Assembly: GCA_003056165.1 (NCBI GenBank)
Contig: LSNR01000014.1
Location: 70,408-134,407 of the forward strand
Reading direction: 5' to 3'
DNA: 64,000 nt
Origin: Parcubacteria group bacterium M6-OD1-3
GTDB taxonomy: Bacteria; Patescibacteriota; Minisyncoccia; Moranbacterales; UBA9337
Of the stretch, positions 1,932 to 18,100 are shown piece by piece. The notes under the pieces were generated by a model that was not told the origin of the DNA, searched no databases, and was given only the letters and a program-made list of their open reading frames with translations. The position numbers and the translations under genes were made by a program. Numbering within the stretch: the first letter of the stretch is position 1; each line of letters begins with the position of its first letter.

Positions 1932-2003
1932 GATTGTTTCGGTAAATATAATTTAGTTTCTGGTACGATTTTAGATAGGATTTTAAATATTAAATAATTT
2001 ACT

Positions 2004-2123
2004 TATCCACAAACTAATTCTAAAAAAGACTTTGTGAATTATTTGTGATATGATATGATACTAAGAAATAAAGTAACTTCATTTAAATTTTAAAATAAAA
2101 CATAAAAATAAAATATAAAAAAT
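2004..2123 (+). repeat. Conserved leader/promoter region, copy 1 (repeated at 5647-5760)
   Basis: TTATCCACA…AAAAAAGACTTtGTGaATTATTTGTGATATGaTA…AAAGATAAAGTAACTTCATTTAAATTTTAAAATAAAA is about 85% identical to the sequence upstream of ORF 5761. It contains a TGnTATGAT extended -10-like element and a perfect DnaA-box 9-mer, TTATCCACA. Confidence 0.7.
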
Positions 2124-3593
2124 ATGAAAAAAATAGTGATAATTGCCATTATTGCCGTTGCGACGATGTTTTCCTTCGGTGGAATAAATGTTGTTTATGG
2201 CGGAGACACATCTATTGATAGTAGTGGTAATGTAATTTACAATTATAATGACAATAGTTCGCCGAAGAAAGTCAATAGCTATGTTAAAGATCCTATTGGT
2301 TGGGGAGGGGGGATCGGTGAGGGTGATAAGGGAAAAACCGGTGTTAATTGTTTTGATTATTATAGATTTCAAAGCGTTCAAGTAAATGTCGGTTCGGATG
2401 CTGATAGTTATAATGCTGGAGATGAAGTTAAGTTTATCGGTAATCTTGTAAATGAAAATAATCAACCGATTGTTAATGGAAATGTTTTTGTTCGTATTTC
2501 TCGAAAAAATAATGAGCATCCGGAAGACTGGGGTTATATAGTAGATGAATTTTTTGCTTTAGATAATATTGTTTTAAAAGCAAACGAAAGAAAAGAGGTG
2601 AGTTTCAGCTGGCATATTCCCAAGGGCACGACAGCTGGTAATTATCGGGCAAATTATTTTTTCACAGTTGGTAAAAAATTTAATTTAGGGGGATTATCTT
2701 TTTCTAATGAAGTTATTATCGGTTCCTCAAGTTTTGTTATTGAATCTCAAAACCATAATTATGTTCAGTTTGACAGATCAAAGACTAAGATTAATGAAAA
2801 AAAATATTTGCATGTAGGCAGTTTGCCGATTATAGATAAGGGTCAGTCTCCTGTACTTACCCAGATGATTGACAATACTTTCAGTGAGAATAAAGATGTA
2901 AAAATGACTTATGATTTATATTATTGGGATGGATTGAATGATGAAAATAAAATTGATTCTAAGACTGAGAATATAAATCTTTCGGCAAATTCAAAAAAGG
3001 AAATAAAATACACTTTCCCCTCAATGAATGTCAGTGTATACTTTCTAAGAGTTACTGCTGAGTATGATAATCAAAAATCAATTATAAATATTCGTTTAGC
3101 GAGCAAACAAGAGCGTCCAAGGCTCAATTATCCGGCGATTGTTTCTTTTCCGATTAAAAAAGGAGATAAGGAGATATTATATAGCTGTTTTCATAATACA
3201 TCAAATGTAAATACACAAGGAAAAGTTATTGTTACTTTAATTGACGAAGAGGGAAAAAAAGTGGCGCAGATTAATCATGAAGGAGAAATTCCTTCAGCAA
3301 TGTCAGCTGATAAAGTTGAATTTATTGCCAAAAAAAATTATCAAAAATTAAATTTGAAAGCAGAGGTTTATGATAAAAATGATAAGTTGGTCGATAGTTA
3401 TCAGACAACTTATGATTGCGCTGATTTTGATGCTTGCGACAATAAGAACAATAAAAACAATAATTCTGCTATCAACAGAATGAGAGATAGTTCCGTAAAA
3501 GTATGGTTGATTTTGTTAGTGATATTATTTGTAGTCATATCAGTTAGCACTCTTATTGTAGTTATCATTAAGAATAAAAATAAAAAGCGATAA
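2124..3593 (+). CDS. Secreted, C-terminally membrane-anchored surface protein (module A, copy 1)
   Basis: N-terminal signal peptide (MKKIVIIAIIAVATMFSFGG…) and a C-terminal TM helix plus basic tail (…VWLILLVILFVVISVSTLIVVIIKNKNKKR). Same architecture as the N-terminal half of ORF 5761. Confidence 0.7.
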   Translation: MKKIVIIAIIAVATMFSFGGINVVYGGDTSIDSSGNVIYNYNDNSSPKKVNSYVKDPIGWGGGIGEGDKGKTGVNCFDYYRFQSVQVNVGSDADSYNAGDEVKFIGNLVNENNQPIVNGNVFVRISRKNNEHPEDWGYIVDEFFALDNIVLKANERKEVSFSWHIPKGTTAGNYRANYFFTVGKKFNLGGLSFSNEVIIGSSSFVIESQNHNYVQFDRSKTKINEKKYLHVGSLPIIDKGQSPVLTQMIDNTFSENKDVKMTYDLYYWDGLNDENKIDSKTENINLSANSKKEIKYTFPSMNVSVYFLRVTAEYDNQKSIINIRLASKQERPRLNYPAIVSFPIKKGDKEILYSCFHNTSNVNTQGKVIVTLIDEEGKKVAQINHEGEIPSAMSADKVEFIAKKNYQKLNLKAEVYDKNDKLVDSYQTTYDCADFDACDNKNNKNNNSAINRMRDSSVKVWLILLVILFVVISVSTLIVVIIKNKNKKR

Positions 3594-3832: not shown

Positions 3833-5566
3833 ATGATAAAAAAATATTACAAAAAAATTTTGTTAAGCGTTGCAACGATAGCATTTTTAAGCGCATTAAG
3901 CGTTCCGAGCGCTATGGCGGTTTCTTCGTCTTGCAGTTATGTGCATAATCAGACATGTTGTGGGAATGGAGCAAAAACATTGGCAACCGGAACAGTTACT
4001 ATTAACCATGATATTTCTATACATGGTGGAAATAAGACTAATTTTTCTGTAGGAGATATTATCGTATTTGATTATTCTTGGGATGGAAGTTTCACAGCTA
4101 CAGGTGGATATTGGGACACCCCAACAGTTTTTAAATGTTCAACATGGAACGGTTGCTTTTCTTCATTTGTTGGCGCGACTAAGTCTAATCATTATACTCA
4201 AAAAATAGTAGATGATAACGGCCGGATAGGATATGTTCAATGGCAAGCGGACGAGCATAGTAATGCGGGAATTTCGGCTTCTTCATCTGACAATAGTGTA
4301 GTAGCTTGCACCGGAGTAATTTGCGCTGTCCTGGGAAACGGAAATGCAACAATAACTGTGACCGCATCTTCAGTGTGGGTAAGGCTTTTTTCTGAGATTT
4401 TTAGCGATGTTTCTCCATCTGGATGGTATGCATCTTTAGCGCCGGAAGGCTTTATAGATGTTCCTGGAAAAGGATATATTATCGGAAATAGTAAGCTTGA
4501 TGATGGATGCATTATAAGAAATATGAAAAGCCCATATACTACACTTTCGAATACTGGTAATTACAAAGGTTTAAGAATTCCAAGCAAGAGTGAAATGTTT
4601 ACGGTTAATACCCCTTCCACCCCCCTTCCCAAAACTAAACCGTCAACCACAATCACTGCACCAACTAAATTTGCTCCAACTGATCCTTACGATCTCATTT
4701 CTCTAGAAGGTCAAAATATTGACTTCAAAGGGACAAATACTGTAGGAAGCGGAGGAGGATCTACAGATAGATATGTTTGGGTAGATATAGACTTAAATAA
4801 AACAAATAGTCCCTCATATTTAGGTACAGATTGTCGAGCAGTGGATGGAGTAGATACAAATGGAGATGGTACTGTTGATATTAACGATTTATTACGCTTT
4901 GATTATATATATCCTAATTTCTCCACTAGTAGTCTATCACTCGGTGATCATAAAATATGCTTTAGTGTTAGACAAAAATATGCCGATGGAACAGTTGCTT
5001 GGGCTAATCCCATTGATAATGTTGATATAAAAATTACTTCTGCTACGCCCCCTCCAACCGTCGACTTAAAAATAAACGGAAGTGATAATCCAATCTCGGT
5101 CTCAAATGGTAGTGATTTAAACCTTACTTGGACAACAAGTGATGCCACATCTTGCTCAGTAATAAATGGTATTGGCTGGAATAATCCTAGCCCAAATATT
5201 CCAAATGGAAATAATAAGGTTACAGCTTCAACAGATTCAGCTTATACACTTTCTTGTATTGGGCCAGGAGGAACTGGAAATGATAGTGTATCGGTTCAAG
5301 TAACTTCTTCTTGTACTCCAAATTATACATATTCATGCATATCGACTAATAGTGTTGATTGTAATAAACCTAGTAATTGTGGATTAAGCAACACTCCAAC
5401 GAATTCTTGTCTAGCCTCTGATACTAATGGCTGTGTGCCTCCAGCAAACAAGCCACTTTCTGATTGTGAAACTGCCAATGGTGTTGGTACCTGTCCAGCA
5501 ACCGGAACAACAGTTGCTTGTCCAGCTTGTGCTAATGAATCTAATTGGGTAGAAGTAAATCCTTAG
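3833..5566 (+). CDS. Secreted Cys-rich protein with a conserved C-terminal domain (module B, copy 1)
   Basis: Signal peptide (…ALSVPSAMA). The C-terminal ~300 aa are clearly homologous to the C-terminus of ORF 5761: …AWANPIDNVDIKIT…VDLKINGS…YTLSC.GPGGTG…CPACANESNW. The tail is Cys-rich. Confidence 0.7.
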   Translation: MIKKYYKKILLSVATIAFLSALSVPSAMAVSSSCSYVHNQTCCGNGAKTLATGTVTINHDISIHGGNKTNFSVGDIIVFDYSWDGSFTATGGYWDTPTVFKCSTWNGCFSSFVGATKSNHYTQKIVDDNGRIGYVQWQADEHSNAGISASSSDNSVVACTGVICAVLGNGNATITVTASSVWVRLFSEIFSDVSPSGWYASLAPEGFIDVPGKGYIIGNSKLDDGCIIRNMKSPYTTLSNTGNYKGLRIPSKSEMFTVNTPSTPLPKTKPSTTITAPTKFAPTDPYDLISLEGQNIDFKGTNTVGSGGGSTDRYVWVDIDLNKTNSPSYLGTDCRAVDGVDTNGDGTVDINDLLRFDYIYPNFSTSSLSLGDHKICFSVRQKYADGTVAWANPIDNVDIKITSATPPPTVDLKINGSDNPISVSNGSDLNLTWTTSDATSCSVINGIGWNNPSPNIPNGNNKVTASTDSAYTLSCIGPGGTGNDSVSVQVTSSCTPNYTYSCISTNSVDCNKPSNCGLSNTPTNSCLASDTNGCVPPANKPLSDCETANGVGTCPATGTTVACPACANESNWVEVNP

Positions 5567-5646
5567 TTTTGAGTGAATTTAAATACAAATAAAATAACCG
5601 CAATAAAAACAACTTTAAATAAGTTGTTTTTATTGTAAAAAATATT

Positions 5647-5760
5647 TTATCCACAGATAACTTTTAAAAAAGACTTGGTGCATTATTTGTGATATGGTAA
5701 TATATTAAAAGATAAAGTAACTTCATTTAAATTTTAAAATAAAATATAAAAAATAAAAAT
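5647..5760 (+). repeat. Conserved leader/promoter region, copy 2
   Basis: See 2004-2123. Includes TTATCCACA at 5647-5655 and TGgTAATAT as an extended -10 candidate. Confidence 0.7.
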
Positions 5761-8496
5761 ATGAACAAAATAAAACAAGGTGCACTTATTGTATTTGGAA
5801 TGCTTTTTGTTATGGTTCCGTTAGTTAATTTGGTTTATGCACAAACAAATGAGGATATTGTTGGTTCAACTGTTGGAATGGATCAAGAGAATAGTCCTGT
5901 TGATGAAGACATAACGGTTAATAATGAAAACATAATTATACTAGCAAATGTAAATATCTGGGATGCGAAGATAAGCAATCAAGATGGAAATAAATTAACA
6001 ATAGACCTCGATATTAATAATGGTATTGGAAAATCTCAACCTAATATTAGATACGCAATTCAATTATTTGATAAAGGTAATGAGTCAAGAAAATTAGTTT
6101 CGGAAAAAGTATTTTCAGATGTTGTTAATGTTCCAGAAAATACCACTATACATAAAACAGTTAGCTATGTAGCTCCAGAATATCTCAAAGGAGATTTTGA
6201 TGTAGATATAATAAGTGAAAGTAGCGGAGGACTTCCATTGGGTGGCACTACTGCTGGGAGTATAACTCTTGATGGGTCTGGCGAGTACATCGATATTCAA
6301 AATGAGAGTTGTTTCTTAACTATCAAAAATAGTTCTGATAAAAAGAAGTATACTCTTCAGGACAGTATATCTATTGAGAAAAATCAAGAAGCTGTTATCT
6401 CTTGCGATATTAAAAGTAATTTTAAGAAAAATGAAAAAGTTATCCCATATATAAATATCTATCAAAGAGATTATTTTGGAAAAAAAATAAGAGAAGAAAA
6501 AGGAGAAGCTATAGAATTAGCACCTGGCAAAACAAAAACAGCGATATTTAACTTATCTGGAGTAGATAAGCCCCAAAGTTATGATGTAGTTGTTATGTTT
6601 AAAAAAGATGGTGATGTGGTAAATACCTCTGATGACACAAATAATATAATCTCTAACAAAATATTCTTTAGATATATTGTAGCTGGGATGGGTGCTAGTA
6701 TTCAAAATATTAGATTATCAAAAGATTACTATCAAAAGGGAGATTCCGCTGTAGTAGTATTAAATTGGTTGAAAAATGTGAATAAGCTTTCTGGGCCTGA
6801 AATAACTACAACCGAAGAACCTTCAATTATAGCAGAGGTAAATATTAAATCCTCTGATGGTAAAAAATGTGCTGAAGCAGTGAGAGAAAAAATGAATGAG
6901 ACAAGTCAAATGAAAAATGTGGCTGTAGTTATTCCAATAGTAAATGATTGTCTCAATCCTAGCGGAACTGTTAAACTGGTAGCAGAGGACGGAACGATTT
7001 TTGATCAGCAAGAATTTCAAATTAAAAGTAATTCTACATTCCAACCAAAAAAAGATTTTGAAAAAAATAATGAAAAAAAATTATCAATCCAAAAAATAAT
7101 GGCGATAGGTGTAACTATATTAGGAATAATAGTTATAGTTGGATTAATTGTTATTGTTATCAGACGGAATAAAAAAAGTGGTGGTATGATGAGCTTGTTG
7201 TTAATTTTATTAACAGCTGGTATTGTTTTTTCAACGAAAAATGTTGAGGCTACGACATTTAGCGCCTCAGTTCCTGGATTGGGTTTTGGTATTCCTATTA
7301 CTGTACAAATGAATAAAAGTGTCTATAGACCGAGAGAAAATGCTACTTTATCAATGCGTGTTAATGGTTCCGTCGTAGGCACAGCTATGTTTCTCAAGCA
7401 TTCTAGATATAATTTTTCTGCTAGTTTTAATGGTCATAGTTTAAGCAGACCAGGGAGCGTCAGTGGTTCAGTAGAAAGTAGATCAGGTAGATATAATGCT
7501 GGCGTCAGTGCATATGAGTCAATATGTAGACTTACCTGGTTAAATACATGTAATTGGGGGTCATCATCAAGAATTTTTAGCGGAAGTGTTCCCTATACGG
7601 TCAGAAGCGTACCAAGACCGCCGGCTAAAACCAATCCGAGAGCGATAATTGATGTTCCATCTAATAATTCCACATTTCAGCAAGGACAACGGATAACTTT
7701 TGCTGGACATGGTGTATTAGGAACTGGAGGAGGTAGAATTGATGAATATTTTTGGGCTGATGTACGACCAGGAACACCATCGTATAGAGGCACGAGATGT
7801 GCTTGTGCTGATGGCTTTGGAAATAGATGTTTAATAACTAGCGGATCAACATCCACTTACAGAACTACTGGACTTACCGTAGGAAATCATAGGATTTGTT
7901 TTAATGTTAGACAAAGATATACCGATAGAACAGTTGCTTGGGCTAATCCCATTGATAATGTCGATATAAAAATTACAACTCCTCCTCCAATCGTTGACTT
8001 AAAAATCAACGGTAGTGGCGGTCCAATTTCAAATGTTTCATCTGGTGGTGATTTGAGGATTGCTTGGACTGTACAAAATGCCACATCTTGCTTAGTAACA
8101 AGTGGTGATGGATGGACGGGCTCAAAAAATTCATCCCGTGGAAATGATAATGTCTTAGCTTCAACAACTTCAACTTATACACTTTCTTGCACTGGTCCAG
8201 GAGGAACTGGAAGTGATAGTGTTAGAGTGTATATTTGTGTCCCAAATCTTAATTATTCATGTCAGAAAACTAATGATAAGACAAGCTATTGTGCTAATCA
8301 TTGTGGAGAAATATTTACTCAAAAAAATAGATGCTTTGTTTCTGATGGAAATAGTTGTAGTCCACCAGCATCAACAGTAGGTATTAAACGGGCTTCTGTT
8401 TGCGCAAATCATAATACAACTTGTTCAGCAACTGAGCCAGGTGTTTCTTGTCCAGCTTGCGCTAATGAATCTAATTGGATTGAAATAAAGCCTTAG
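5761..8496 (+). CDS. Fused module A2-B2: signal peptide, surface domain, TM anchor (…IVIVIRRNKK), then a second signal-peptide-like segment (MMSLLLILLTAGIVFS…) and a Cys-rich B-type domain
   Basis: 911 aa. The internal TM helix plus RRNKK at about 7100-7176 matches the end of ORF 2124. An in-frame ATGATG at 7186 is followed by a signal-peptide-like segment and then a region homologous to ORF 3833, ending CPACANESNWIEIKP. There is no stop codon between the two halves. Confidence 0.65.
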   Translation: MNKIKQGALIVFGMLFVMVPLVNLVYAQTNEDIVGSTVGMDQENSPVDEDITVNNENIIILANVNIWDAKISNQDGNKLTIDLDINNGIGKSQPNIRYAIQLFDKGNESRKLVSEKVFSDVVNVPENTTIHKTVSYVAPEYLKGDFDVDIISESSGGLPLGGTTAGSITLDGSGEYIDIQNESCFLTIKNSSDKKKYTLQDSISIEKNQEAVISCDIKSNFKKNEKVIPYINIYQRDYFGKKIREEKGEAIELAPGKTKTAIFNLSGVDKPQSYDVVVMFKKDGDVVNTSDDTNNIISNKIFFRYIVAGMGASIQNIRLSKDYYQKGDSAVVVLNWLKNVNKLSGPEITTTEEPSIIAEVNIKSSDGKKCAEAVREKMNETSQMKNVAVVIPIVNDCLNPSGTVKLVAEDGTIFDQQEFQIKSNSTFQPKKDFEKNNEKKLSIQKIMAIGVTILGIIVIVGLIVIVIRRNKKSGGMMSLLLILLTAGIVFSTKNVEATTFSASVPGLGFGIPITVQMNKSVYRPRENATLSMRVNGSVVGTAMFLKHSRYNFSASFNGHSLSRPGSVSGSVESRSGRYNAGVSAYESICRLTWLNTCNWGSSSRIFSGSVPYTVRSVPRPPAKTNPRAIIDVPSNNSTFQQGQRITFAGHGVLGTGGGRIDEYFWADVRPGTPSYRGTRCACADGFGNRCLITSGSTSTYRTTGLTVGNHRICFNVRQRYTDRTVAWANPIDNVDIKITTPPPIVDLKINGSGGPISNVSSGGDLRIAWTVQNATSCLVTSGDGWTGSKNSSRGNDNVLASTTSTYTLSCTGPGGTGSDSVRVYICVPNLNYSCQKTNDKTSYCANHCGEIFTQKNRCFVSDGNSCSPPASTVGIKRASVCANHNTTCSATEPGVSCPACANESNWIEIKP

Positions 8497-8663: not shown

Positions 8664-9779
8664 ATGTTTAAGCTCTCCGGATTTAAAAAAAATTATTTTC
8701 TAGGCATTGATTTTGGTACTTCGTCAATTAAAATAGTGGAATTGGTTTATAAAAAAAGTGGTGTATATCTATCTAACTACGGTTGGGTTAACTTACCTGC
8801 AAATAACAAAGTTTCTAAATCTACTATGACGCAGGATGAAAGAGACAGGGAAGTTGAAAAAAATTTAAAAAAACTAATTGATAAAATGAGTATTGAGAGT
8901 AATTCAGCACATATTTCGATGGGTGCTTTCAAAGGTTTATCAACTTTAGTAGAAGTTTTCGGAGCGACGGAGGATAATATGGGAGATATTGTTAAAGCAG
9001 AGGCCAATAAATATATCCCAGTATCTTTGGATGAGGTTTATTTAAGCTGGGATATAGTATCTAAGCAAAAAAAGAAAAGTGTTTTAACAAAAATAAAAGA
9101 AAGTGAATCTGATAGATTAGAGCAGAAGAATAAATCCAGTCAAGTTTTGCTTGTTGCAGCACCAAAAGAAGATGTTCGCAGGTATGAAAAAATAGTTGAT
9201 AATGTAGGGCTGGAGGTGGATTCGTTAGAGTTGGATATATTTTCGGTGGTGAGATCATTGATTGGTGATGACTTAGGAACATTTTTGATAATTGATATGG
9301 GTGCAAAGATAACTAATATTATATTGGTCAAGAGAGGGATAATTACTATTAATAGGAATATTAATGTTGGCGGAGATGAAATAACTAAAAATATAATGTC
9401 TAATTTAAATGTTTCATGGTCTCGTGCAGAAGATTTTAAAAAAAGAAATGATTATCTTTCCGGTGAAGGAAAAATGATGATTGATCCAGTAGTAAATATT
9501 GTAACAAAAGAAGCTAAGCGGATTATAGAACTGGGTATCAATAATAATGAAAAAAACAAAATTGATAGTATCCTGATTACTGGAGGTGGAGTTGATATTG
9601 TTGGGATAAGTAATATTTTTTCTGACAAATTGGGCATTAAAGCGACAATGAGTGATCCTTGGAAAAAAATTATAATTGAAAATAATAAATTGAAAAATAA
9701 AAATACAAATATTTTAGCTATGTTATCTGTGGCTACGGGATTAGCACTTAAAGGTGTCGGAAGTTATAAGCGTAATTAA
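8664..9779 (+). CDS. pilM: Type IV pilus assembly protein PilM (actin-like ATPase fold)
   Basis: FLGIDFGTSSIKIVEL at the N-terminus, a 371-aa length typical of PilM, and pilN/O-like genes immediately downstream. Confidence 0.8.
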   Translation: MFKLSGFKKNYFLGIDFGTSSIKIVELVYKKSGVYLSNYGWVNLPANNKVSKSTMTQDERDREVEKNLKKLIDKMSIESNSAHISMGAFKGLSTLVEVFGATEDNMGDIVKAEANKYIPVSLDEVYLSWDIVSKQKKKSVLTKIKESESDRLEQKNKSSQVLLVAAPKEDVRRYEKIVDNVGLEVDSLELDIFSVVRSLIGDDLGTFLIIDMGAKITNIILVKRGIITINRNINVGGDEITKNIMSNLNVSWSRAEDFKKRNDYLSGEGKMMIDPVVNIVTKEAKRIIELGINNNEKNKIDSILITGGGVDIVGISNIFSDKLGIKATMSDPWKKIIIENNKLKNKNTNILAMLSVATGLALKGVGSYKRN

Positions 9780-9866
9780 TTTTGTGTTAAAATAAATTTG
9801 TGCTATAATTTAATGAGTTATCAGGTAATAAAATTTTTCATATAAATAACAATAAAAATAAAAAAA

Positions 9867-10421
9867 ATGATTGATATAAATCTTCATAAAGCATCAGAAA
9901 ATGACTTAAAAATAAGTCGAAGAAAAAGTATTTTTAGAAGTGGATTTTTCCTATCAGTTGCTCTGCTAGCCGTTGTTTCGGTTATTTTCGGGATAACTAA
10001 ATTGTATCAGAACAATTTAATAAACAAAAAGAATTCATTGGTTCAACTGAGAGCGGATAAGTTGAATTCCTTTGATAATAATACTGTTAATAATTTGGTT
10101 AACTTTAAAAGAAGATTAGATGGAGTTTCATTTAATTTGCAAAATAAAGATAATCCTGGTGAGGTATTAAATAGCGTGGAAAACCTAATAGTTAAGGGTG
10201 CCTCTCTTAATGATTTAGACTATGACATTATGAATAATAGTCTAAAAATGGAAGTTGTTGCAGATAGTTTTAGGTTAGCTTCAAATCAAATGCTTAGTTT
10301 GAAGAAAAGTGACTTATTCAGGGATGTTTTAATTGACGATTCTTATAGAAATGAGGCTGGACAGGCTGTCTTTACTCTAACGGGTGTACTAAAAAATGAA
10401 ACAAAAATAAATAAAAGATAA
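9867..10421 (+). CDS. pilN: PilN-like pilus assembly protein (single N-terminal TM)
   Basis: 184 aa with a basic N-terminus and one TM helix (FFLSVALLAVVSVIFGI). Its position after pilM supports the call. Confidence 0.5.
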   Translation: MIDINLHKASENDLKISRRKSIFRSGFFLSVALLAVVSVIFGITKLYQNNLINKKNSLVQLRADKLNSFDNNTVNNLVNFKRRLDGVSFNLQNKDNPGEVLNSVENLIVKGASLNDLDYDIMNNSLKMEVVADSFRLASNQMLSLKKSDLFRDVLIDDSYRNEAGQAVFTLTGVLKNETKINKR

Positions 10422-10469
10422 TAAATATAAAAAGACTTTTTTATAAAAGTCCTAAAAATAATTAAAAAT

Positions 10470-11321
10470 ATGAAATTAAAATTTTTATTGATGCCTATTG
10501 CAGTGATATCTTCTATAATAATTATTATTTGGTATATTTGGCCAATGTGGTTTGATGATAAGCTAGATGATAGTATTACTTCCATAAACAAAAATATTAA
10601 ATCAGTTCAGGCTGAGATTAATAAAATAGAACAAAGAAAAACAAATATTATATCTCTTGACGAATCTTTGCAAAGTCAAGGAGAGGATAAAAACTTAGTA
10701 GAGAATTATTATCCAGAAATACGCAAGGAGGAGGATGTTATAAATAAAATAAATCAGATTGCTTTTTCTACTGGGGTATATATATCTGAAATGAATATTG
10801 ATTATGGTGACGATATTTCTAAAGAAAAAATGAATAAATTCTTAGCTATACCTAAGTATGTGCCTATTCCAGAAATAGTTCCAAAAAATTCAACAAAAAC
10901 TGCGTCAAGTACACCAGCGAGCATATCTGCTAAGAAAGATGTTTTGTCGAAGCTGGTAGCTGTTAATTTGAAGATATATGGAAATTATGATCAAATAAAA
11001 AGTTTTCTTAATACGCTTTACCCGATTGGGTTATTGAGCAATATAGAATCATTTGAAATCAAGAAGGACGCTAATGAGCAGAAGAAGGCGGAAGGTGATA
11101 GTGATAAAAATTCATCAACTTTATTAACTAGTAATATAACCATAAATTTTGGTTATTTAAAAAAAGGAAATTCCAAACTTGCTGAATTATTAGAATCACC
11201 AACAATGGAAGTTAAACAATTCGATTTTAATATTATTGATAAATTTAGAGATTTATTACTTGAGAAATATTCTAATAGTGAAATAGGTGAAACGGGAGAA
11301 TCTAATCCATTTTTTCCATAG
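10470..11321 (+). CDS. pilO: PilO-like pilus assembly protein (TM plus coiled coil)
   Basis: N-terminal TM helix followed by a coiled-coil (IKSVQAEINKIEQRK…), sitting between pilN and pilB. Confidence 0.45.
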   Translation: MKLKFLLMPIAVISSIIIIIWYIWPMWFDDKLDDSITSINKNIKSVQAEINKIEQRKTNIISLDESLQSQGEDKNLVENYYPEIRKEEDVINKINQIAFSTGVYISEMNIDYGDDISKEKMNKFLAIPKYVPIPEIVPKNSTKTASSTPASISAKKDVLSKLVAVNLKIYGNYDQIKSFLNTLYPIGLLSNIESFEIKKDANEQKKAEGDSDKNSSTLLTSNITINFGYLKKGNSKLAELLESPTMEVKQFDFNIIDKFRDLLLEKYSNSEIGETGESNPFFP

Positions 11322-11565
11322 AGAGTAACTTAGTTTGTAGTAATGATTGGTCTACTTTTTGAATGTCAAAAAAATGTTTTATTTGTAATAAAAGTGAAAT
11401 AGACTATGTATTTTCAAAAAATATTTTTTAATTCTCGGAGAGATATATATTAAATTAACATAGTATATTATGTAATATTTTCTAAATCCGTTTTAATTTT
11501 TCTGCGATTCAAAATAATAAATAGTTATAAAAGTAGGGACTTAAATTGGCTATCAATACAAAAAA

Positions 11566-13242
11566 ATGCCTGAAAATAAAAATCAAAAATCAAAAAATCA
11601 ATTAATAAAAGTTGCAAAGAAATTGGGAATAAAAGCTTTAGGAAGTGCTCCAAAGAACATAGATAAGAAAAGTATTGAAATTATTCCAGAAAAAATAGGA
11701 TTGAAATATAAAATGTTAGCATTCGATAAATCTGGTAAAACTGTTAGCGTCGCAATGACTGATCCACAAGATATAGAAGCAAGAAATGTTCTAACTTTTT
11801 TGGCAGAAAGAAATAAAGTAACATTTGATATTTATATTACTTCGGAAGCTGTGATGAGAGAGATTATTAGCAAATATCATTCTGCCGAAAAGGCGGTAAA
11901 AGAAGTGATGGCTTCTTTTGAAGATACTACAAATAAGGCAAACAAAACAGAAAGTAAGAAAAAAAGACAGGCTAGGCAAATGATGATTCAAGATGCTCCT
12001 GTTTCTAAATTGGTTCAAGTTATTATCAATCATGCTATTGAGGGTGGTGCCAGTGATATTCATATTGAGCCGATGGGTGATGAATACAGAGTTAGGTTTA
12101 GAGTTGATGGATTATTGCATGCATCACTAGTATTGCCAAAGAGTGTTGGAATGGCAACAATCTCACATATTAAAATATTATCTAACTTAAAAATAGATGA
12201 GACTAGAAAACCTCAAGATGGTAGGTTTAAAAGTGAGCGGGGAAAAATTATCACAAAGGAAGATGTCGATTTTCGAGTGTCGACATTACCAGTAATATCT
12301 GGCGAAAAGGTGGTGATGCGAGTATTGACTAAGGATGATAGAGTTTTTAATTTAAAAAAATTAGGTTTGTTAGGGAAGAATTACGATATTTTAAATAAAA
12401 AAATAAAAGAAACTAGCGGTATAATTTTATTGACTGGTCCTACTGGATCAGGAAAATCAACAACACTATATTCTTTTCTAAAAATTATCAATATTGAAGA
12501 GAGAAATATTGTTACGCTTGAAGACCCAGTGGAATATTCTTTAGATGGAATAAATCAAAGCCAAATAAATCCAGCGATAGGTTATACTTTTGCCAATGGT
12601 TTGCGTTCTATCCTCAGACAAGATCCAAATGTTATAATGATTGGGGAGATTCGTGATGGGGAAACTGCTGAATTAGCAATTCATGCTGCTTTGACTGGAC
12701 ATCTTGTTTTTTCTACTCTGCATACAAATAGCGCTATTAGTGCTATCCCAAGATTGATTGATATGGGATTGGAGCCATTTCTATTATCTTCTTCCTTGAA
12801 CGCAGTAGCTGCGCAGAGATTAGTAAGAAGATTATGTGATAGTTGTAAAACAGAAATTAAATTACCAGATGCCATTTATGAAGAAATAAAAAATTCTCTC
12901 AAAAATGTGAGCGAAGAAGAAATAAAAAAATATGGTTTAAAATCACTAGATTTGGAAAATATGAAATTCTATAAAAGTGTTGGCTGTGAGGAATGTGGCG
13001 GGGTTGGATATAAAGGAAGAGTCGCAATATATGAGTGTGTTGATGTTAATAATGATTTACGAGAAGTAATCATAGAAAAAGATGAACTGTTGCTGAAGAG
13101 GACTGCCAATAAACAACATTTATTAAATATGCGACAAGATGGCTTATTAAAATCTTTGCTAGGGTTAACTTCAGTATCTGAGGTAGAAAGAATGACGGAA
13201 GGAAGTTTGACTGTGGGTGAATTAGATGATGACAAAGGATAA
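11566..13242 (+). CDS. pilB: Type IV pilus assembly (extension) ATPase PilB/GspE family
   Basis: Walker A GPTGSGKST, a tetracysteine Zn motif (CDSCK…CEECGGVGYKGR), and a GspE N-domain. Length 558 aa. Confidence 0.9.
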   Translation: MPENKNQKSKNQLIKVAKKLGIKALGSAPKNIDKKSIEIIPEKIGLKYKMLAFDKSGKTVSVAMTDPQDIEARNVLTFLAERNKVTFDIYITSEAVMREIISKYHSAEKAVKEVMASFEDTTNKANKTESKKKRQARQMMIQDAPVSKLVQVIINHAIEGGASDIHIEPMGDEYRVRFRVDGLLHASLVLPKSVGMATISHIKILSNLKIDETRKPQDGRFKSERGKIITKEDVDFRVSTLPVISGEKVVMRVLTKDDRVFNLKKLGLLGKNYDILNKKIKETSGIILLTGPTGSGKSTTLYSFLKIINIEERNIVTLEDPVEYSLDGINQSQINPAIGYTFANGLRSILRQDPNVIMIGEIRDGETAELAIHAALTGHLVFSTLHTNSAISAIPRLIDMGLEPFLLSSSLNAVAAQRLVRRLCDSCKTEIKLPDAIYEEIKNSLKNVSEEEIKKYGLKSLDLENMKFYKSVGCEECGGVGYKGRVAIYECVDVNNDLREVIIEKDELLLKRTANKQHLLNMRQDGLLKSLLGLTSVSEVERMTEGSLTVGELDDDKG

Positions 13243-13307
13243 TATAAATAATCTGTTGGAATATAATAAATATAATAAATAAATATAATAAATATTTAGA
13301 TAAATAT

Positions 13308-13787
13308 ATGAGTGAAATTAAAGTCAATATTGAAAATGAGGATGAAGACAATAAATCTAATGAATTTAGTAATAGCGATAAAGATAGTAGAAATAATTCG
13401 GAAAAAAATAAAGTAACTATCTTATTAGCAGAAGATGATGAATTCATTAGAGATATTTATAATCGTATTTTTAAGATGAATGGGTATGAAGTTGTGTTAG
13501 CAACCAATGGCTTGGAAGCAATGAAGAAAATGGAAAAAATAACGCCTGATTTAATATTATTGGATGTTATGATGCCTTATCAAAATGGTAAAGAAGTTTT
13601 TAAAAAAATTAAAAAAGATGATCGATTAAAAAATATTCCCGTAGTTTTTTTGACGAATGTTTCCGCCGAAGATGATATAGAAAAAGAATTGCTGGAGCAG
13701 GCCGATAAATATTTAATTAAAGCGCATTTTACGCCCAAAGAAGTTGTGGCGGAAGTTGCTCTTTTGTTGAAAAATAAAAATGAATAA
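13308..13787 (+). CDS. Single-domain response regulator (CheY-like receiver, PilH/PilG-like) with an acidic N-terminal extension
   Basis: VTILLAEDDEFIRD…LILLDVMMPYQNGKEV…KNIPVVFLTNVS matches the receiver-domain signature, with D and K at the expected positions. It lies between pilB and pilT and overlaps the pilT start by 8 nt. Confidence 0.85.
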   Translation: MSEIKVNIENEDEDNKSNEFSNSDKDSRNNSEKNKVTILLAEDDEFIRDIYNRIFKMNGYEVVLATNGLEAMKKMEKITPDLILLDVMMPYQNGKEVFKKIKKDDRLKNIPVVFLTNVSAEDDIEKELLEQADKYLIKAHFTPKEVVAEVALLLKNKNE

Positions 13788-14862
13788 TACATTGCGCGTC
13801 GGACAAAAATTAAAAAGTTATCTGTTAATAGTGGCTCAACAAAATGCTTCGGATTTACATCTAGTTGTAGGTCGACATCCTACCATTAGAGTTGATGGAA
13901 GACTAATTCCCCTTGCTGAAGAAGAGATTTTAACTCCAGAAAAAACGAAAGAATTTAGTAAAATATTGTTAACAGAAAACAATGAGCGAGAAATGTTGGA
14001 AAAGGGACAAATAAATTTTTCTTATGATTTTGAAGGTAAAGCCAGATTTAGAACTAGTGTTTATTTTCAGCAAGGAAACTTGAGTATAGCAATGCGATTG
14101 ATTCAAAATAAAATAAGAACTCTCGAGGAATTGGATGTTACTACGAACTTGTATGATTTTGCAAAATATTCGCAGGGACTTGTTTTAATTACTGGACCAG
14201 TTGGACATGGAAAATCAACAACTTTAGCTGCAATAGTAGAACACATTAATCACAATTATGATAAGCATATACTTACTATCGAAGACCCTATTGAATATGT
14301 CTACCAACAAGATCGTTGTATTATTAACCAGAGAGAGATCGGTCGAGATGTCAAAAGCTTCCCTTCTGCATTAAGGGGTGTCTTCAGAGAAGATGTGAAT
14401 GTTGTTCTTATCGGAGAAATGCGAGACTTAGATACAATTAGTACAACAATGACTGCAGCTGAAACCGGACATTTAATTTTTGCTACATTGCATACTAATA
14501 ATAGCGCACAAACAGTAGACAGAATTGTTGATGTTTTCCCATCACATCAGCAAAATCAAATTAGGTCTCAACTAGCGAATGTTTTATTAGGAGTTTTGTC
14601 TCAAAGGTTGGTTCCGCGGATAGGTGGAGGAAGGGTTCCAGCAGTAGAGATTATGTTAAAAAATCATGCTGTAGGAAATCTCATTAGAGATAATAGATCT
14701 TATCAGATAGATTCAGTGATAGAGACGAGTCTTAAAGAGGGGATGGTTTCTCTAGACAGATCATTGGGGGAATTGGTAAAAAATGGTATAATTTCTATAG
14801 ATGATGCCTTTGCTTACACTGGTAACAAAGAATATTTGAAGACAATAATAAAAAATAAATAA
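13780..14862 (+). CDS. pilT: Twitching-motility (retraction) ATPase PilT
   Basis: Walker A GPVGHGKST and a 360-aa length; PilT/PilU family pattern. Confidence 0.9.
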   Translation: MNNTLRVGQKLKSYLLIVAQQNASDLHLVVGRHPTIRVDGRLIPLAEEEILTPEKTKEFSKILLTENNEREMLEKGQINFSYDFEGKARFRTSVYFQQGNLSIAMRLIQNKIRTLEELDVTTNLYDFAKYSQGLVLITGPVGHGKSTTLAAIVEHINHNYDKHILTIEDPIEYVYQQDRCIINQREIGRDVKSFPSALRGVFREDVNVVLIGEMRDLDTISTTMTAAETGHLIFATLHTNNSAQTVDRIVDVFPSHQQNQIRSQLANVLLGVLSQRLVPRIGGGRVPAVEIMLKNHAVGNLIRDNRSYQIDSVIETSLKEGMVSLDRSLGELVKNGIISIDDAFAYTGNKEYLKTIIKNK

Positions 14863-14897
14863 ATTAATAGATAACGGTAAATAGTTATAATAATATT

Positions 14898-16106
14898 ATG
14901 AGATTCAAATTTAAGGCAAAAGATAAAAAAAATAAAATACAAAGTGGCGTAGTAGATGCAATAAGTAAAGAATTAGCTGTCCAAGTCTTACAAGAAAATG
15001 ATTTGAATGCTATCCTAATTGAAAGAGAAACAGGCGATTCTCCGTTGAGTCAATATTTGCATAAGTCTTGGGAAAAGGTAGGTAAAAAAGATTTGTTAGT
15101 ATTTTTTCGACAATTTCATGCTTTAATATCTTCTAAAGTGCCTGTTGTTTATTCTCTTCGGGCAATTGGTGACCAAACTGAACACAAATATTTAAGTAGT
15201 CTAATTAAGGATATTGCTAATGATGTTGAGGATGGTACAACTTTTTCAGAAGCATTGGGAAGATATCCAGATGTTTTTCCTAAAGTTGTAACTAGCGTTA
15301 TTAATGCTGGAGAGGTTTCTGGTAATTTAGAGGAGGCTATCAAACATGTTGCAGAAAGTACAGAAAAAAATTATCGCATTACTGCTAAGATAAGGGGAGC
15401 GTTGATTTATCCGGCTTTTATTCTGACAGCAGCTTTGATTGTCGGGTTTTTGAGTGTTGTAATTATTGTGCCAAAATTAACTTTGATCATTAAAGATCTG
15501 AATGCAGAAGTTCCATGGTATACGCATATGGTGATAGGCATCGGAGATTTTATGCAGGCTTATTGGTGGGCAGTATTAGTGGTAATTTTTGGTTTTATAA
15601 TTGCTGTTGCTTATTATGTTAAAACAGAAGCTGGTCATAAGGAATGGGATAAAATACAATTAGAATTGCCAATTATTGGAAAATTGTTTCGGTATCTTTA
15701 TTTGACAAAATTTGCTAATAACTTTGTAGTGATTTTAGATGGTGGTGTGCCAATAGTTCAATCACTTAATATCGTTGCAGAAGTAGTTAATAATAGTATT
15801 TATCAAGGAATAATACTTCGTTGTGCTGATGAAGTTAAAACCGGAGGAAATATTAGTACAGTGCTTGCTCAATCAGATTATATTCCTGGCATTGTTACGA
15901 AAATGGTAATAGTAGGTGAGAAAACTGGAAAAATTAGTGAATCATTAGGTAGTGTGGGAAATTTTTATGAACAAGAAATGGATGAGATGATTAAAAATTT
16001 ATCGGTTTTAATTGAGCCAGTTTTAATTGTTGGATTGGGATTAGGTGTGGCGTTTTTAGCATTTTCGATTATTTTGCCGATTTATAATGTAGTGCAGAAT
16101 TTCTAA
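14898..16106 (+). CDS. pilC: Type IV pilus inner-membrane platform protein PilC/GspF
   Basis: 402 aa with two GspF repeats and three TM segments. Confidence 0.88.
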   Translation: MRFKFKAKDKKNKIQSGVVDAISKELAVQVLQENDLNAILIERETGDSPLSQYLHKSWEKVGKKDLLVFFRQFHALISSKVPVVYSLRAIGDQTEHKYLSSLIKDIANDVEDGTTFSEALGRYPDVFPKVVTSVINAGEVSGNLEEAIKHVAESTEKNYRITAKIRGALIYPAFILTAALIVGFLSVVIIVPKLTLIIKDLNAEVPWYTHMVIGIGDFMQAYWWAVLVVIFGFIIAVAYYVKTEAGHKEWDKIQLELPIIGKLFRYLYLTKFANNFVVILDGGVPIVQSLNIVAEVVNNSIYQGIILRCADEVKTGGNISTVLAQSDYIPGIVTKMVIVGEKTGKISESLGSVGNFYEQEMDEMIKNLSVLIEPVLIVGLGLGVAFLAFSIILPIYNVVQNF

Positions 16107-17261: not shown

Positions 17262-17292
17262 ATATTAATAAATAAATTTCAAAGTAACTAAT

Positions 17293-18099: not shown

Positions 18100-18100
18100 G

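What the first reader, a model, noticed from the sequence alone, without database searches (positions are those of the whole stretch)
4900..8496. Conserved C-terminal domain ending in a near-identical Cys-rich tail (…CPACANESNW[V/I]E[V/I][N/K]P) in two large secreted proteins
ORF 3833 and the C-terminal half of ORF 5761 share about 300 aa that include …TVAWANPIDNVDIKIT…VDLKINGS…YTLSC.GPGGTG… (an Ig-like/PKD-like-looking repeat) and a 10-Cys tail whose last 16 residues are almost identical. A terminal motif conserved this strictly could be a sorting signal, an anchoring signal or a disulfide-knot module, and I do not recognise it as an LPXTG-type or other standard sorting tag.
Basis: partly seen in the sequence, partly recalled or inferred. 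Interest (0 to 1): 0.55.

Follow-up and report, generated by a model that had tools for sequence, protein, structure and literature searches.

The report
Undescribed Cys-rich C-terminal tail, WxEVxP end
Two secreted surface proteins of an ultra-small (CPR) bacterium share a previously unannotated 85-residue, ten-cysteine end-piece that always finishes with the peptide Trp-x-Glu-Val-x-Pro, a selected terminal tag that recurs in a conserved three-protein surface module and most likely docks these proteins at the cell surface.

Summary
ORF A (3833-5566) and the C-terminal third of ORF B (5761-8496) are 47% identical over 335 aa. Both end in a 10-Cys tail, ...CPACANESNW[V/I]E[V/I][N/K]P.

The tail is not confined to these paralogs. 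An exhaustive HMM search found it in five more protein clusters with unrelated N-terminal parts, always at the extreme C-terminus. It matches nothing in Pfam, NCBIfam, PDB sequences or PDB folds.

The last six residues, [W/F/M]-x-E-[V/I/A/T]-x-P-COOH, also cap other Cys-rich tails in related CPR proteins. Within genomes, paralog pairs differ in this end almost only by synonymous changes, which indicates purifying selection.

It is not a sortase- or exosortase-type signal. No hydrophobic segment follows it, and no peptidase co-occurs in the loci seen.

Context:
- A is paired in other genomes with ORF C (2124-3593), a membrane-anchored beta-sandwich protein, and elsewhere is fused to it.
- B belongs to an old family in which a C-like ectodomain, a TM hairpin with an internal signal-peptidase site, and a tail-bearing ectodomain form one chain.

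Best reading (inferred, untested): a disulfide-bonded C-terminal docking module. The closest analogue is the WxL/WxLIP system of Firmicutes, but it is not a member of that family.

The parts
2003..2123 (+). Upstream element of ORF C. It contains a perfect TTATCCACA 9-mer and a promoter-like TTGTGA-16-TATGAT (2032-2059). It is duplicated upstream of ORF B.
   Evidence: About 90% identity to 5647-5760, including a 33-nt perfect match at 2068-2100 = 5712-5744. Promoter scan. The TTATCCACA 9-mer is also present upstream of the L001 ortholog.
2124..3593 (+). ORF C, 489 aa: signal peptide, all-beta ectodomain, then a C-terminal TM helix followed by a KKR tail. It is the conserved partner gene of A.
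   Evidence: Only weak Pfam hits to beta-sandwich families (MG2, Big_14, Mannosidase_ig), all below the gathering cut-offs. 64 homologous clusters in CPR. It is adjacent to an A-like gene in L001, L003 and L010 (homology). In L011 the next gene is a 672-aa Cys-rich protein that showed no BLAST similarity to A. It is fused to an A-like part in P0044, P0073, P0079 and P0046.
3833..5566 (+). ORF A, 577 aa, a secreted protein: signal peptide (AMA|VS at about aa 29), head domain (aa 30-247, with GGYWDTP and a Big_2-like SSDNSVVACTG...ITVTAS), PKD-like domain, Ig-like domain, Cys-rich tail.
   Evidence: The head is homologous to L010_A and to the post-hairpin part of the C::A fusions.
4574..5044 (+). 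First part of the region A shares with B, with a PKD-like look (G..I.F.G...GGG.ID.Y.W...PSY.GT.C...H.ICF.VRQ.Y.D.T). It contains the paralog-specific identical patch TVAWANPIDNVDIKIT.
   Evidence: Structure confidence is low here, so the fold assignment is only by sequence pattern.
5048..5305 (+). Ig-like beta-sandwich domain of A (VDLKINGS...NATSC...YTLSC.GPGGTG..SV.V), with 2 Cys.
   Evidence: pLDDT 80-85 in the AF2 model. The same unit occurs in tandem in P0003-P0009.
5306..5563 (+). Cys-rich C-terminal tail of A, about 85 aa with 10 Cys: C-x-P-x-Y-x-Y-S-C-x7-C-x5-C-G-x8-C-...-N-G-C-...-C-...-C-...-C-P-x-C-x5-W-V-E-V-N-P.
   Evidence: Alignment A4. The HMM search found it only at C-termini. 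No Pfam, PDB or NCBIfam match. AF2 pLDDT 70 with no Foldseek match.
5546..5563 (+). Terminal hexapeptide W-V-E-V-N-P, followed by the stop codon.
   Evidence: The motif [WFM]xE[VIAT]xP lies at the C-terminus of 14 distinct family proteins among 266 ORFs, with no hit outside the family.
5601..5635 (.). Palindromic terminator-like hairpin between A and B, marking the end of the C-A transcription unit.
5647..5760 (+). Upstream element of ORF B, a duplicate of 2003-2123.
5761..8496 (+). ORF B, 911 aa, of the 'B-type' family: signal peptide, a distantly C-related ectodomain (aa ~28-440), a TM hairpin, a second ectodomain, and the tail.
   Evidence: The N-terminal half is homologous to L010_B (E 2e-26), L013_789 (E 2e-35) and L013_886 (E 3e-47). 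hhalign against the C family itself was not significant.
7081..7251 (+). TM1 (aa ~441-466), basic loop RRNKKSGG, then TM2, an internal signal-peptide-like helix (aa 476-493) ending in V-E-A|T, a signal-peptidase-I-type site after aa 497.
   Evidence: Hydropathy. The same TM-loop-TM plus small-x-small arrangement is seen in 9 of 9 related hairpin proteins. Cleavage itself is inferred.
7570..8235 (+). B's copy of the PKD-like and Ig-like region shared with A.
8236..8493 (+). Cys-rich C-terminal tail of B (10 Cys), ending in W-I-E-I-K-P at 8476-8493.

Best explanation
The shared region is the C-terminal half of two paralogous extracellular proteins of a CPR (Moranbacteria-like) bacterium. It consists of a PKD-like domain, an Ig-like domain and a previously unannotated tail.

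The tail is about 85 residues long and has 10 Cys, probably forming five disulfides. It ends in a selected hexapeptide, [W/F]-x-E-[V/I/A]-x-P-COOH.

The tail belongs to a CPR-specific surface module with three components:
- C, a membrane-anchored beta-sandwich protein.
- A, a secreted multi-domain protein.
- B, a single chain containing a C-like ectodomain, a TM hairpin and a tail-bearing ectodomain.

Proposed mechanism:
1. All three proteins are exported by Sec.
2. In B-type and C::A fusion proteins the second TM helix acts as an internal signal peptide. It is probably cut by signal peptidase I, which releases the tail-bearing part.
3. The released Cys-rich proteins have no membrane anchor. 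They are held at the cell surface by non-covalent docking of the C-terminal module, with the terminal peptide as the key recognition strand. The receptor is a conserved envelope component, most plausibly the beta-sandwich ectodomain of C or of B's N-terminal half.
4. The variable N-terminal heads are thereby displayed for adhesion.

What is shown: the homology relationships, terminal position, selection on the terminal peptide, gene pairing and fusion, topology signals, and absence from known families.

What is inferred: disulfide bonding, cleavage at the internal site, docking, and the identity of the receptor.
For: Tail distribution and annotation:
- It occurs in 5 further 50%-identity clusters, all at the extreme C-terminus and with unrelated N-terminal parts.
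- It has no match in Pfam, NCBIfam, PDB sequences or PDB folds.

Terminal motif:
- It recurs on other Cys-rich tails: L013 ...CTWQEVAP twice and ...GDWREVAP; L010 ...GRMIETRP twice; L011 ...TWKEISPFQ; L008 ...GWREVGL.
- 14 of 266 ORFs carry it. All 14 are Cys-rich proteins: A-like, B-type, C::A-fusion or 10-Cys-tail proteins, plus the L011 1063-aa protein.
- Only one internal W.E[VI].P occurs elsewhere.

Selection: terminal segments of four within-genome paralog pairs show 14 synonymous-only codon differences against 3 conservative replacements. In L013 the sequence upstream of the last 12 codons is unalignable.

Cysteines: mature-protein Cys counts are even in 8 of 8 proteins, and none has a C-terminal hydrophobic segment.

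Linkage between C and A:
- C-A adjacency in the window, L001, L003 and L010. In L011 a Cys-rich protein with no detected similarity to A follows C.
- C::A fusions P0044, P0073, P0079 and P0046.
- B-type homologs in L010 and L013.
- 9 of 9 hairpin proteins keep a small-x-small site after TM2.

The upstream regions of C and B are duplicated.

Precedent: in Firmicutes, WxL domains are always C-terminal on adhesin-like multi-domain proteins. They are bound by the co-encoded Ig-like, TM-anchored WxLIP (PMC10599100, PMC9772566).
Against: - No direct evidence shows binding, cleavage or disulfides.
- The tail proteins P0012-P0015 and those in L008 are not next to a C-family gene. Their neighbours are small, mutually unrelated membrane proteins.
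- Some C::A fusions (P0073, P0079) lack the motif, so the C-A link may run through A's head domain rather than its tail.
- B-type proteins would already be membrane-tethered if TM2 is not cleaved, which would make a retention role redundant for them.
- The AF2 models of the tail are only moderate (pLDDT 70, and 55 for the last residues), with no strand predicted at the terminus.
- The family is rare. There were only 8 hits at E <= 1e-3 among 1.84 billion representatives (7 of them terminal tail matches) and none in two DNA pattern scans, so the generality of the 10-Cys form is limited.
Confidence: 0.4

Rival explanations
1. The terminal peptide is a true processed sorting signal. A dedicated CPR enzyme recognises ...C-x(1-6)-W-x-E-V-x-P-COOH and cleaves it, or covalently attaches the protein to the cell wall, a lipid or another protein. 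This would be a new kind of sorting signal that lacks a TM segment.
For: - The motif is strictly terminal and under purifying selection across different tail types and lineages.
- Paralogs within a genome keep identical ends, as substrates of one enzyme would.
- Lipoprotein-maturation genes lie near two loci: lnt directly upstream in L008 and lgt about 4 kb downstream in L013.
Against: - There is no hydrophobic helix or basic tail to hold the substrate at the membrane.
- No sortase, exosortase, rhombosortase or other peptidase recurs in the nine independent loci or in the 64-kb window.
- No NCBIfam sorting-domain model matches.
- The lnt and lgt proximity is seen in only two loci and at different distances.
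Confidence: 0.15
2. The tail is purely structural. It is a disulfide-stapled cap that stabilises the end of a beads-on-a-string extracellular protein, and the terminal W-x-E-V-x-P is simply the last buried strand of that small fold. This parallels the WxL motifs, which are buried and structural.
For: - Conserved even Cys counts.
- The Trp and the alternating hydrophobic pattern are typical of a buried beta-strand.
- In WxL domains the name-giving motifs are buried and not ligand-contacting (PMC9772566).
- hhalign links the 10-Cys tail weakly to another tail type over 51 columns (Prob 36%). This suggests one divergent fold rather than a portable peptide.
Against: - The hexapeptide is kept on tails whose preceding sequence is otherwise unalignable (P0044, L010 and L013). 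That is unusual for a mere structural strand.
- The invariant final Pro and the strict distance to the C-terminus are not explained by folding alone.
- The AF2 model does not place the terminus in a strand.
Confidence: 0.25
3. The tail is a tail-to-tail oligomerisation module. It would tether secreted A to B, or build homo-oligomers, by homotypic contacts or intermolecular disulfides, in the way the C-terminal cystine-knot domain dimerises mucins and von Willebrand factor.
For: - The size (~85 aa), Cys count (10) and extreme C-terminal position are similar to those of CTCK domains (my own knowledge of CTCK; not tested here beyond Pfam).
- Within-genome matching of the ends of A-type and B-type proteins is seen in three genomes: the window, L010 and L013. 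Homotypic partners would be expected to match in this way.
Against: - There is no sequence match to Cys_knot or CTCK models and no CxGxC / CxC knot signature.
- Window A's terminal 16 residues are as similar to ortholog P0011 (12 of 16 identical) as to paralog B (12 of 16). The matching is therefore general conservation rather than genome-specific co-evolution, at least here.
- Proteins P0014 and P0015 have no obvious anchored partner.
Confidence: 0.12
4. The similarity is only a by-product of recent duplication or gene conversion between A and B and has no special function.
For: - 13 nt after the stop codon (TAGTTTTGAGTGA) are identical between A and B but not in orthologs.
- The TVAWANPIDNVDIKIT patch is paralog-specific.
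- The upstream elements of C and B are duplicated.
Against: - The tail and its terminal motif are conserved in orthologs and in unrelated proteins from other genomes.
- Synonymous differences accumulate in the terminal peptide while the amino acids stay fixed.
- Codon identity at identical residues is 69% overall against 11 of 12 at the end, which is not a significant excess.
Confidence: 0.03

Closest known systems
WxL domain proteins and WxLIP (DUF916-DUF3324-TM) gene clusters of Lactobacillales and Bacillales (Csc / WxL clusters; PMC10599100, PMC9772566, PMC1534035)
   Same: - A monoderm-type envelope.
- Gene clusters encoding Sec-secreted, string-of-domains adhesin-like proteins whose conserved domain is always at the extreme C-terminus and carries a Trp-x-aliphatic/acidic motif close to the end.
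- A co-encoded protein made of Ig-like ectodomains held by one C-terminal TM helix, which is the architecture of ORF C.
- A proposed role in non-covalent surface retention.
   Different: - No sequence relationship: neither A, B nor the tail matches WxL, and C does not match DUF916 or DUF3324.
- The tail is about 85 aa with 10 Cys and one W-x-E motif, against 160-190 aa, no Cys framework and two W-x-L motifs.
- No small WxL-only protein and no LPXTG protein is present in the cluster.
- Fusion proteins with a TM hairpin are not described for WxL clusters.
- The hosts are CPR bacteria, not Firmicutes.
Tripartite C-terminal sorting signals (LPXTG/sortase, PEP-CTERM/exosortase, GlyGly-CTERM/rhombosortase, PGF-CTERM/archaeosortase, MYXO-CTERM)
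   Same: A short conserved motif at the C-terminus of many different secreted proteins, often several per genome and often on Cys-rich or adhesin-like proteins.
   Different: All of these signals have a hydrophobic TM helix and a basic cluster after the motif, and they co-occur with a dedicated enzyme. Here the motif is itself the last six residues, nothing hydrophobic follows, no NCBIfam model matches, and no enzyme recurs nearby.
Type IX secretion C-terminal domain (CTD) of Bacteroidota
   Same: A folded C-terminal domain of about 80-100 aa shared by many otherwise unrelated secreted proteins.
   Different: The T9SS CTD is a Cys-poor beta-sandwich that needs an outer membrane, a T9SS translocon and PorU. 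CPR bacteria are thought to lack an outer membrane (my own knowledge). No T9SS gene was seen in the window ORFs and locus genes that were scanned. There is no sequence or fold match.
C-terminal cystine-knot (CTCK) domain of mucins, von Willebrand factor and Slit
   Same: About 85-90 aa, 10-11 Cys, extreme C-terminal position on large extracellular multi-domain proteins.
   Different: CTCK is eukaryotic. There is no Pfam Cys_knot match, no CxGxC / CxC signature, and dimerisation was not tested.
Large cysteine-rich extracellular proteins noted in CPR genomes (Peribacteria; PMC4736985)
   Same: CPR organisms; signal-peptide-bearing, Cys-rich proteins with a proposed attachment role; strain-variable.
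   Different: That paper reports composition and size only. It defines no C-terminal module, no terminal motif and no partner gene.

Membership tests
WxL domain (Pfam PF13731) | A C-terminal domain of 160-190 aa with two conserved Trp-x-Leu motifs, detected by the Pfam WxL model | tested here: not met
   Pfam scans of A and B at E <= 1 and of eight tails at E <= 10 gave no WxL hit. The tail is about 85 aa with a single W-x-E. The family definition is taken from PMC9772566.
WxL cluster (WxLIP partner) | A co-encoded DUF916-DUF3324 protein with a C-terminal TM helix | tested here: not met
   ORF C has the same architecture (signal peptide, beta-rich ectodomain, C-terminal TM). However, its Pfam hits at E <= 1 are MG2, Big_14, Mannosidase_ig and similar, not DUF916 or DUF3324.
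Sortase / LPXTG-type and exosortase-type sorting signals | Motif followed by a hydrophobic TM segment and a basic C-terminal cluster | tested here: not met
   Hydropathy scans find no C-terminal hydrophobic segment in any of 8 proteins, and the motif itself ends the protein. NCBIfam has no match.
Sortase / exosortase-type sorting signals | Co-occurrence with the cognate processing enzyme | tested here: inconclusive
   None was found in the window ORFs scanned with Pfam or among the called genes within up to 10 kb in L001-L014. Whole genomes could not be examined.
PKD / Ig-like domain superfamily (for the mid-region) | A beta-sandwich fold of about 85-90 aa recognised by Pfam PKD, Big or fn3 models, or by structure | tested here: inconclusive
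   There is no Pfam hit in A or B. The AF2 model gives a confident beta-sandwich for aa ~410-490. Foldseek matches only generic Ig/cadherin/S-layer arrays at low TM-score. Homologous units sit in proteins whose sources name them PKD or fn3 proteins.
C-terminal cystine knot (Pfam Cys_knot) | CxGxC and CxC knot motifs; Pfam model match | tested here: not met
   No hit, and the motifs are absent from alignment A4.
Proposed new family: 10-Cys tail ending in WxEVxP | Ten Cys at conserved spacing, C-x-P-x-Y-x-Y-[ST]-C at the start, N-C-G, C-x-x-C-x(5,6)-[WF]-x-E-[VIA]-x-P-COOH, in a protein with a Sec signal peptide | tested here: met
   A and B meet all features, except that B has L for the first Y and a shifted third Cys. 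The HMM hits to P0011-P0015 have E-values from 1e-10 to 4e-5, all at C-termini.

The most novel reading that the evidence does not exclude
W-x-E-V-x-P-COOH, preceded closely by a Cys, would be a new class of C-terminal sorting or attachment signal specific to CPR/Patescibacteria. It would work without a transmembrane segment and be read by an unidentified conserved envelope machine. One candidate is the C-family ectodomain acting as a receptor or even as a transpeptidase: it has an invariant CFHNTS motif in the alignment of three C orthologs. The signal would fix Cys-rich adhesins to the surface of these episymbionts. The TM-hairpin 'polyproteins' (B-type and C::A) would deliver receptor and ligand in 1:1 stoichiometry.
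Probability: 0.12. Interest if true: 0.85.

Novelty: new variant of a known kind. Interest (0 to 1): 0.55.

Why it matters
CPR/Patescibacteria live attached to other microbes, yet almost nothing is known about how their surface proteins are retained or displayed. A selected terminal tag would help in three ways:
- It gives a simple sequence handle, a C-terminal [WFM]xE[VIAT]xP after a Cys-rich stretch, for cataloguing candidate adhesins in CPR genomes.
- It points to a conserved partner, the ORF C family (64 clusters), that can be tested for binding.
- Natural Rosetta-stone fusions with an internal signal peptide suggest a polyprotein route for making receptor-ligand pairs at the surface.

If the docking idea is right, this would be a CPR counterpart of the WxL/WxLIP system that arose independently. 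If the tag is processed, it would be a new kind of sorting signal.

Tried and rejected
Searches that found nothing:
- Pfam and NCBIfam scans of A, B, C and the eight tails gave nothing above cut-off.
- A PDB sequence profile search gave only a chance hit at E = 1.3.
- Foldseek of the AF2 tail model against PDB gave nothing below E = 1.
- Foldseek of the full-length A model gave only generic Ig-array matches with TM-score below 0.2.
- The word-indexed protein search with the tail alignment returned nothing, not even A itself. I treat this as a tool limitation for short Cys-rich queries. The earlier search with the 330-aa alignment also missed B and P0011.
- A genome-contig scan with peptide patterns, and a degenerate DNA pattern for the canonical tail start run on genome contigs and metagenome contigs, all gave 0 hits. 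The pattern does work on the fetched loci, so the family is rare or those collections lack these samples.
- A literature search for a described CPR C-terminal motif found none.

Ideas tested and rejected or left open:
- Homology between ORF C and B's N-terminal half. hhalign gave Prob 7%, not significant. Indirect links exist through L010_B and P0044 at E ~ 1e-4 to 1e-7.
- Gene conversion as the sole cause of the identical end. Rejected, because orthologs keep the end and synonymous differences persist.
- The small membrane proteins next to other tail proteins as a conserved partner. The L008 141-aa and L013 144-aa proteins show no significant similarity.
- A functional link to the type IV pilus operon. 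That adjacency exists only in this genome and its sister strain, not in L003, L008, L010, L011 or L013.
- TSP1-like or Zn-ribbon readings of the tail. No support.

Not possible: disulfide connectivity could not be derived, because model coordinates are not exposed.

Full report
**1. The observation**

The ORF listing shows three consecutive + strand ORFs between greA (1412-1870) and a complete type IV pilus operon:
- C, 2124-3593, 489 aa
- A, 3833-5566, 577 aa
- B, 5761-8496, 911 aa

The pilus operon comprises pilM 8664, pilN 9867, pilB 11566, a response regulator 13308, pilT 13780, pilC 14898, pilins at 16260, 16827 and 18101, and the prepilin peptidase at 17293.

A residues 248-577 align with B residues 604-911 at 47% identity, E = 4e-74. 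Both proteins end in a 10-Cys stretch whose last 16 residues are 12 of 16 identical, and the four differences (A/S, V/I, V/I, N/K) are conservative: ACPACANESNWVEVNP against SCPACANESNWIEIKP. No other ORF in the window carries the motif. The finding as described is therefore real. The shared region begins near 4574 and 7570 rather than at 4900.

**2. What is duplication history and what is constraint**

The DNA alignment of the two 3' halves shows near-perfect patches.
- The TVAWANPIDNVDIKIT patch is identical only between the two paralogs. Orthologs P0011 and P0002 read TSAWAGQAGNIEYRDV and TRLWAGAAGNIEYRDI. That patch is concerted evolution, not family-wide constraint.
- The 13 nt after the stop codon are identical between A and B but not in any ortholog.
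- About 115-120 nt upstream of C and B are ~90% identical, including a 33-nt perfect match. The C-A unit and B therefore have duplicated upstream control regions.
- Codon identity at identical residues is 69% overall and 11 of 12 at the very end. This is not a significant excess.
- The tail end, in contrast, is also kept in ortholog P0011 (TCPACPNEGNWVEVAP). Its conservation is not just a conversion artefact.

**3. The tail is a family, always terminal, and unannotated**

I ran an exhaustive profile search of the tail alone against 1.84 billion representatives. It returned B, the truncated ortholog P0002, and P0011, P0012, P0013, P0014 and P0015, with E-values from 1e-10 to 4e-5. In each full-length protein the match ran to the last residue.

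Their N-terminal parts are unrelated to A's. The consensus is:

C-x-P-x-Y-x-Y-[ST]-C-x7-C-x5-C-G-x8-C-x(3-6)-N-[SG]-C ... C ... C ... C-x-x-C-x(5,6)-[WF]-x-E-[VIA]-x-P-COOH

Stop codons are followed by terminator hairpins in the orthologous loci, so these are true protein ends.

Nothing matches the tail in any library searched:
- Pfam
- NCBIfam
- PDB sequences
- PDB folds, using an AF2 model of pLDDT 70 and pTM 0.46

All eight proteins examined have an even number of Cys after the signal peptide: 22, 22, 26, 30, 20, 28, 20 and 22. None has a C-terminal hydrophobic segment. The even counts fit full disulfide pairing in an exported protein. The absence of a hydrophobic segment excludes a sortase- or exosortase-type tripartite signal.

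The family is rare. Degenerate DNA pattern scans of the GTDB representative genomes and the JGI metagenome set found no copy, although the pattern does hit the fetched loci.

**4. The terminal hexapeptide is wider than the 10-Cys tail**

Following the neighbours turned up the same ending on other Cys-rich tails:
- L008 428-aa protein...NGWREVGL
- L013: two B-type proteins ending ...GTKDCTWQEVAP and a C::A fusion ending ...GDWREVAP
- L010: a B-type and an A-like protein both ending ...CSSGRMIETRP
- L011 (Staskawiczbacteria): a 1063-aa protein ending ...TWKEISPFQ

Across the window and all loci, 266 ORFs of at least 80 aa were scanned. [WFM]xE[VIAT]xP within two residues of the C-terminus occurs in 14 distinct proteins, all of them Cys-rich family members. 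Only one internal W.E[VI].P occurs anywhere else.

In four within-genome paralog pairs, codon differences in the terminal peptide split as follows:

| Pair | Codons compared | Synonymous-only | Replacements |
|---|---|---|---|
| L010 | last 29 | 6 | 0 |
| L013 | last 12 | 3 | 0 |
| L008 | last 13 | 4 | 0 |
| window | last 16 | 1 | 3 (conservative) |

In L013 the sequence upstream of those 12 codons is unalignable. This pattern indicates purifying selection on the peptide, not recent conversion.

hhalign links the 10-Cys tail weakly to the L013 tail over 51 columns (Prob 36%). For P0044 and the L008 428-aa protein it aligns only the last 9-14 residues.

**5. The gene module**

ORF C defines a widespread CPR family. 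It has 64 clusters, with source names that include Moranbacteria, Giovannonibacteria and Staskawiczbacteria.

C is immediately followed by an A-like gene in L001, L003 and L010. In L011 it is followed by a 672-aa Cys-rich protein that shows no BLAST similarity to A. In several genomes C is fused to an A-like protein: P0044, P0073, P0079 and P0046. The post-hairpin part of these fusions is homologous to A's head domain.

B's N-terminal half is homologous to the N-terminal halves of L010_B, L013_789 and L013_886, with E-values from 2e-26 to 3e-47. B-type is therefore an old family, distantly linked to C. hhalign of C against B directly was not significant.

All nine hairpin proteins share the same arrangement: TM1, a short basic loop, TM2, then a small-x-small site. 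In window B this site is V-E-A|T after residue 497. I infer that TM2 is an internal signal peptide cut by signal peptidase I. On that reading these chains are polyproteins that yield one anchored C-like protein and one free tail-bearing protein.

The pilus adjacency is seen only in this genome and its 99.4%-identical sister strain L009. It is absent in L003, L008, L010, L011 and L013.

No sortase or other candidate processing enzyme recurs (and the locus tables).

**6. Mechanism**

Established:
- homology relationships
- terminal position
- selection on the terminal peptide
- even Cys counts
- gene pairing and fusion with C
- topology signals
- absence from known families

Inferred:
- The tail is a disulfide-bonded extracellular domain.
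- Its terminal peptide is a recognition element.
- Its job is to keep otherwise anchorless Cys-rich proteins at the surface of a bacterium thought to lack an outer membrane (my own knowledge), by docking to a conserved envelope component. The best candidate is the beta-sandwich ectodomain of C or of B's N-terminal half.

Weak points:
- Several tail proteins (P0012-P0015 and those in L008) are not next to a C gene.
- Some fusions lack the motif.
- The AF2 models are only moderate.

Rivals and confidences:

| Explanation | Confidence |
|---|---|
| Docking module | 0.40 |
| Purely structural disulfide cap | 0.25 |
| Processed sorting signal of a new TM-less kind | 0.15 |
| Tail-to-tail oligomerisation | 0.12 |
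| Meaningless duplication remnant | 0.03 |

**7. Comparison with known systems**

The closest known system in how it would work is the WxL/WxLIP cluster of Firmicutes:
- WxL domains always sit at the C-terminal end of string-of-domains adhesin-like proteins.
- They are proposed to bind peptidoglycan.
- They are bound by the co-encoded DUF916-DUF3324-TM protein, whose domains are IgG-like (PMC9772566, PMC10599100).

ORF C has that architecture, and A has the large-WxL-protein architecture. Membership fails on every tested point, however. There is no WxL, DUF916 or DUF3324 match. The length is different. There is one W-x-E motif instead of two W-x-L motifs. The tail has a Cys framework that WxL domains lack. 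So it may work like WxL but is not a WxL family member.

LPXTG, PEP-CTERM-type signals, the T9SS CTD and the CTCK domain were considered and rejected as families (see the membership table).

Cys-rich extracellular proteins have been noted in CPR genomes before (PMC4736985), but without a defined module or motif. My literature searches found no description of this tail or ending.

**8. Verdict**

It is a rare 10-Cys C-terminal module, and beyond it a terminal [W/F/M]xE[V/I/A/T]xP tag under selection. Both are embedded in a conserved CPR surface module made of C, A and B/C::A proteins.

The function is unproven. I rate it a new variant of a known kind (C-terminal surface-retention or docking domains), with interest 0.55.

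The organism is a CPR bacterium. The closest named homologs come from Candidatus Moranbacteria MAGs, and the sister strain is GCA_003056105.1.

Noticed in passing
window 2003-2123 and 5647-5760; L001 about 3600: The duplicated upstream elements of ORF C and ORF B both begin with a perfect TTATCCACA 9-mer, the DnaA-box consensus (my own knowledge), about 20 nt upstream of a TTGTGA-16-TATGAT promoter-like site. The L001 ortholog's upstream region has the same perfect 9-mer, and L003 has a 2-mismatch version. Only 3 perfect copies occur in 64 kb. This may indicate DnaA-linked regulation of the surface module.
   Followed up: partly
window 4620-4625; L009 8074-9806: In the 99.4%-identical sister strain (GCA_003056105.1), gene A is split into 290-aa and 241-aa ORFs. 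The cause is a single-base deletion in a C6 homopolymer, which is the only difference in the whole gene. It could be slipped-strand phase variation of a surface protein or a sequencing error.
   Followed up: partly
window 7159-7251 and related proteins (P0044, P0073, P0079, P0046, P0074, L010_B, L013_789, L013_886): Nine proteins have a TM helix, a short basic loop and a second TM helix ending in a small-x-small site. They look like natural polyproteins with an internal cleavable signal peptide joining a C-like anchored protein to an A-like secreted protein.
   Followed up: partly
window 8664-20215 and 29402-35295: There are two separate type IV pilus gene sets. The first is a full operon with pilM/N, pilB, a response regulator wedged between pilB and pilT, pilC, several pilins and pilD. 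By reading the ORF translations without a family search, I take the second set to hold large pilin-like proteins (465, 206 and 498 aa) plus a second pilM/N/O-like trio.
   Followed up: partly
window 45281-51335: This is a lower-GC stretch (about 28-29%). It encodes a Bro-N domain protein, a ClpP-like SDH-type protease, a C-5 cytosine DNA methylase and several ORFs with no family. It may be a prophage remnant or mobile island.
   Followed up: no
L008 4464-9190; L006; P0015 locus: In other genomes, tail-bearing proteins sit in a conserved arrangement just upstream of nrdR. Each is preceded by a ~147-153-aa protein; in L006 and L008 this is a Cys-free protein with several hydrophobic segments, while the P0015-locus protein's sequence could not be read. 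In L008 the cluster follows ftsA-ftsZ-lnt. The role of the small membrane proteins is unknown.
   Followed up: partly
L010 14183-14734: A membrane-anchored thioredoxin-fold protein with a WCPSC motif lies about 1 kb downstream of the B-C-A module in L010, with one 214-aa gene between them. It is a candidate extracytoplasmic thiol-disulfide oxidoreductase for these Cys-rich proteins. No counterpart was seen next to the module in the window.
   Followed up: no
L013 just after 9915 and 15252: The sequences immediately after the stop codons of the two B-type genes in L013 both contain short tandem TATGAATTA(T/G)GAA-like repeats. Their meaning is unknown.
   Followed up: no
L009 1-3063 (upstream of the window's left end in the sister strain): A run of six genes with T4SS_pilin (PF18895) hits lies a few kb upstream of greA. 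The surface module is therefore flanked by both type IV secretion pilin genes and type IV pilus genes in this organism.
   Followed up: no
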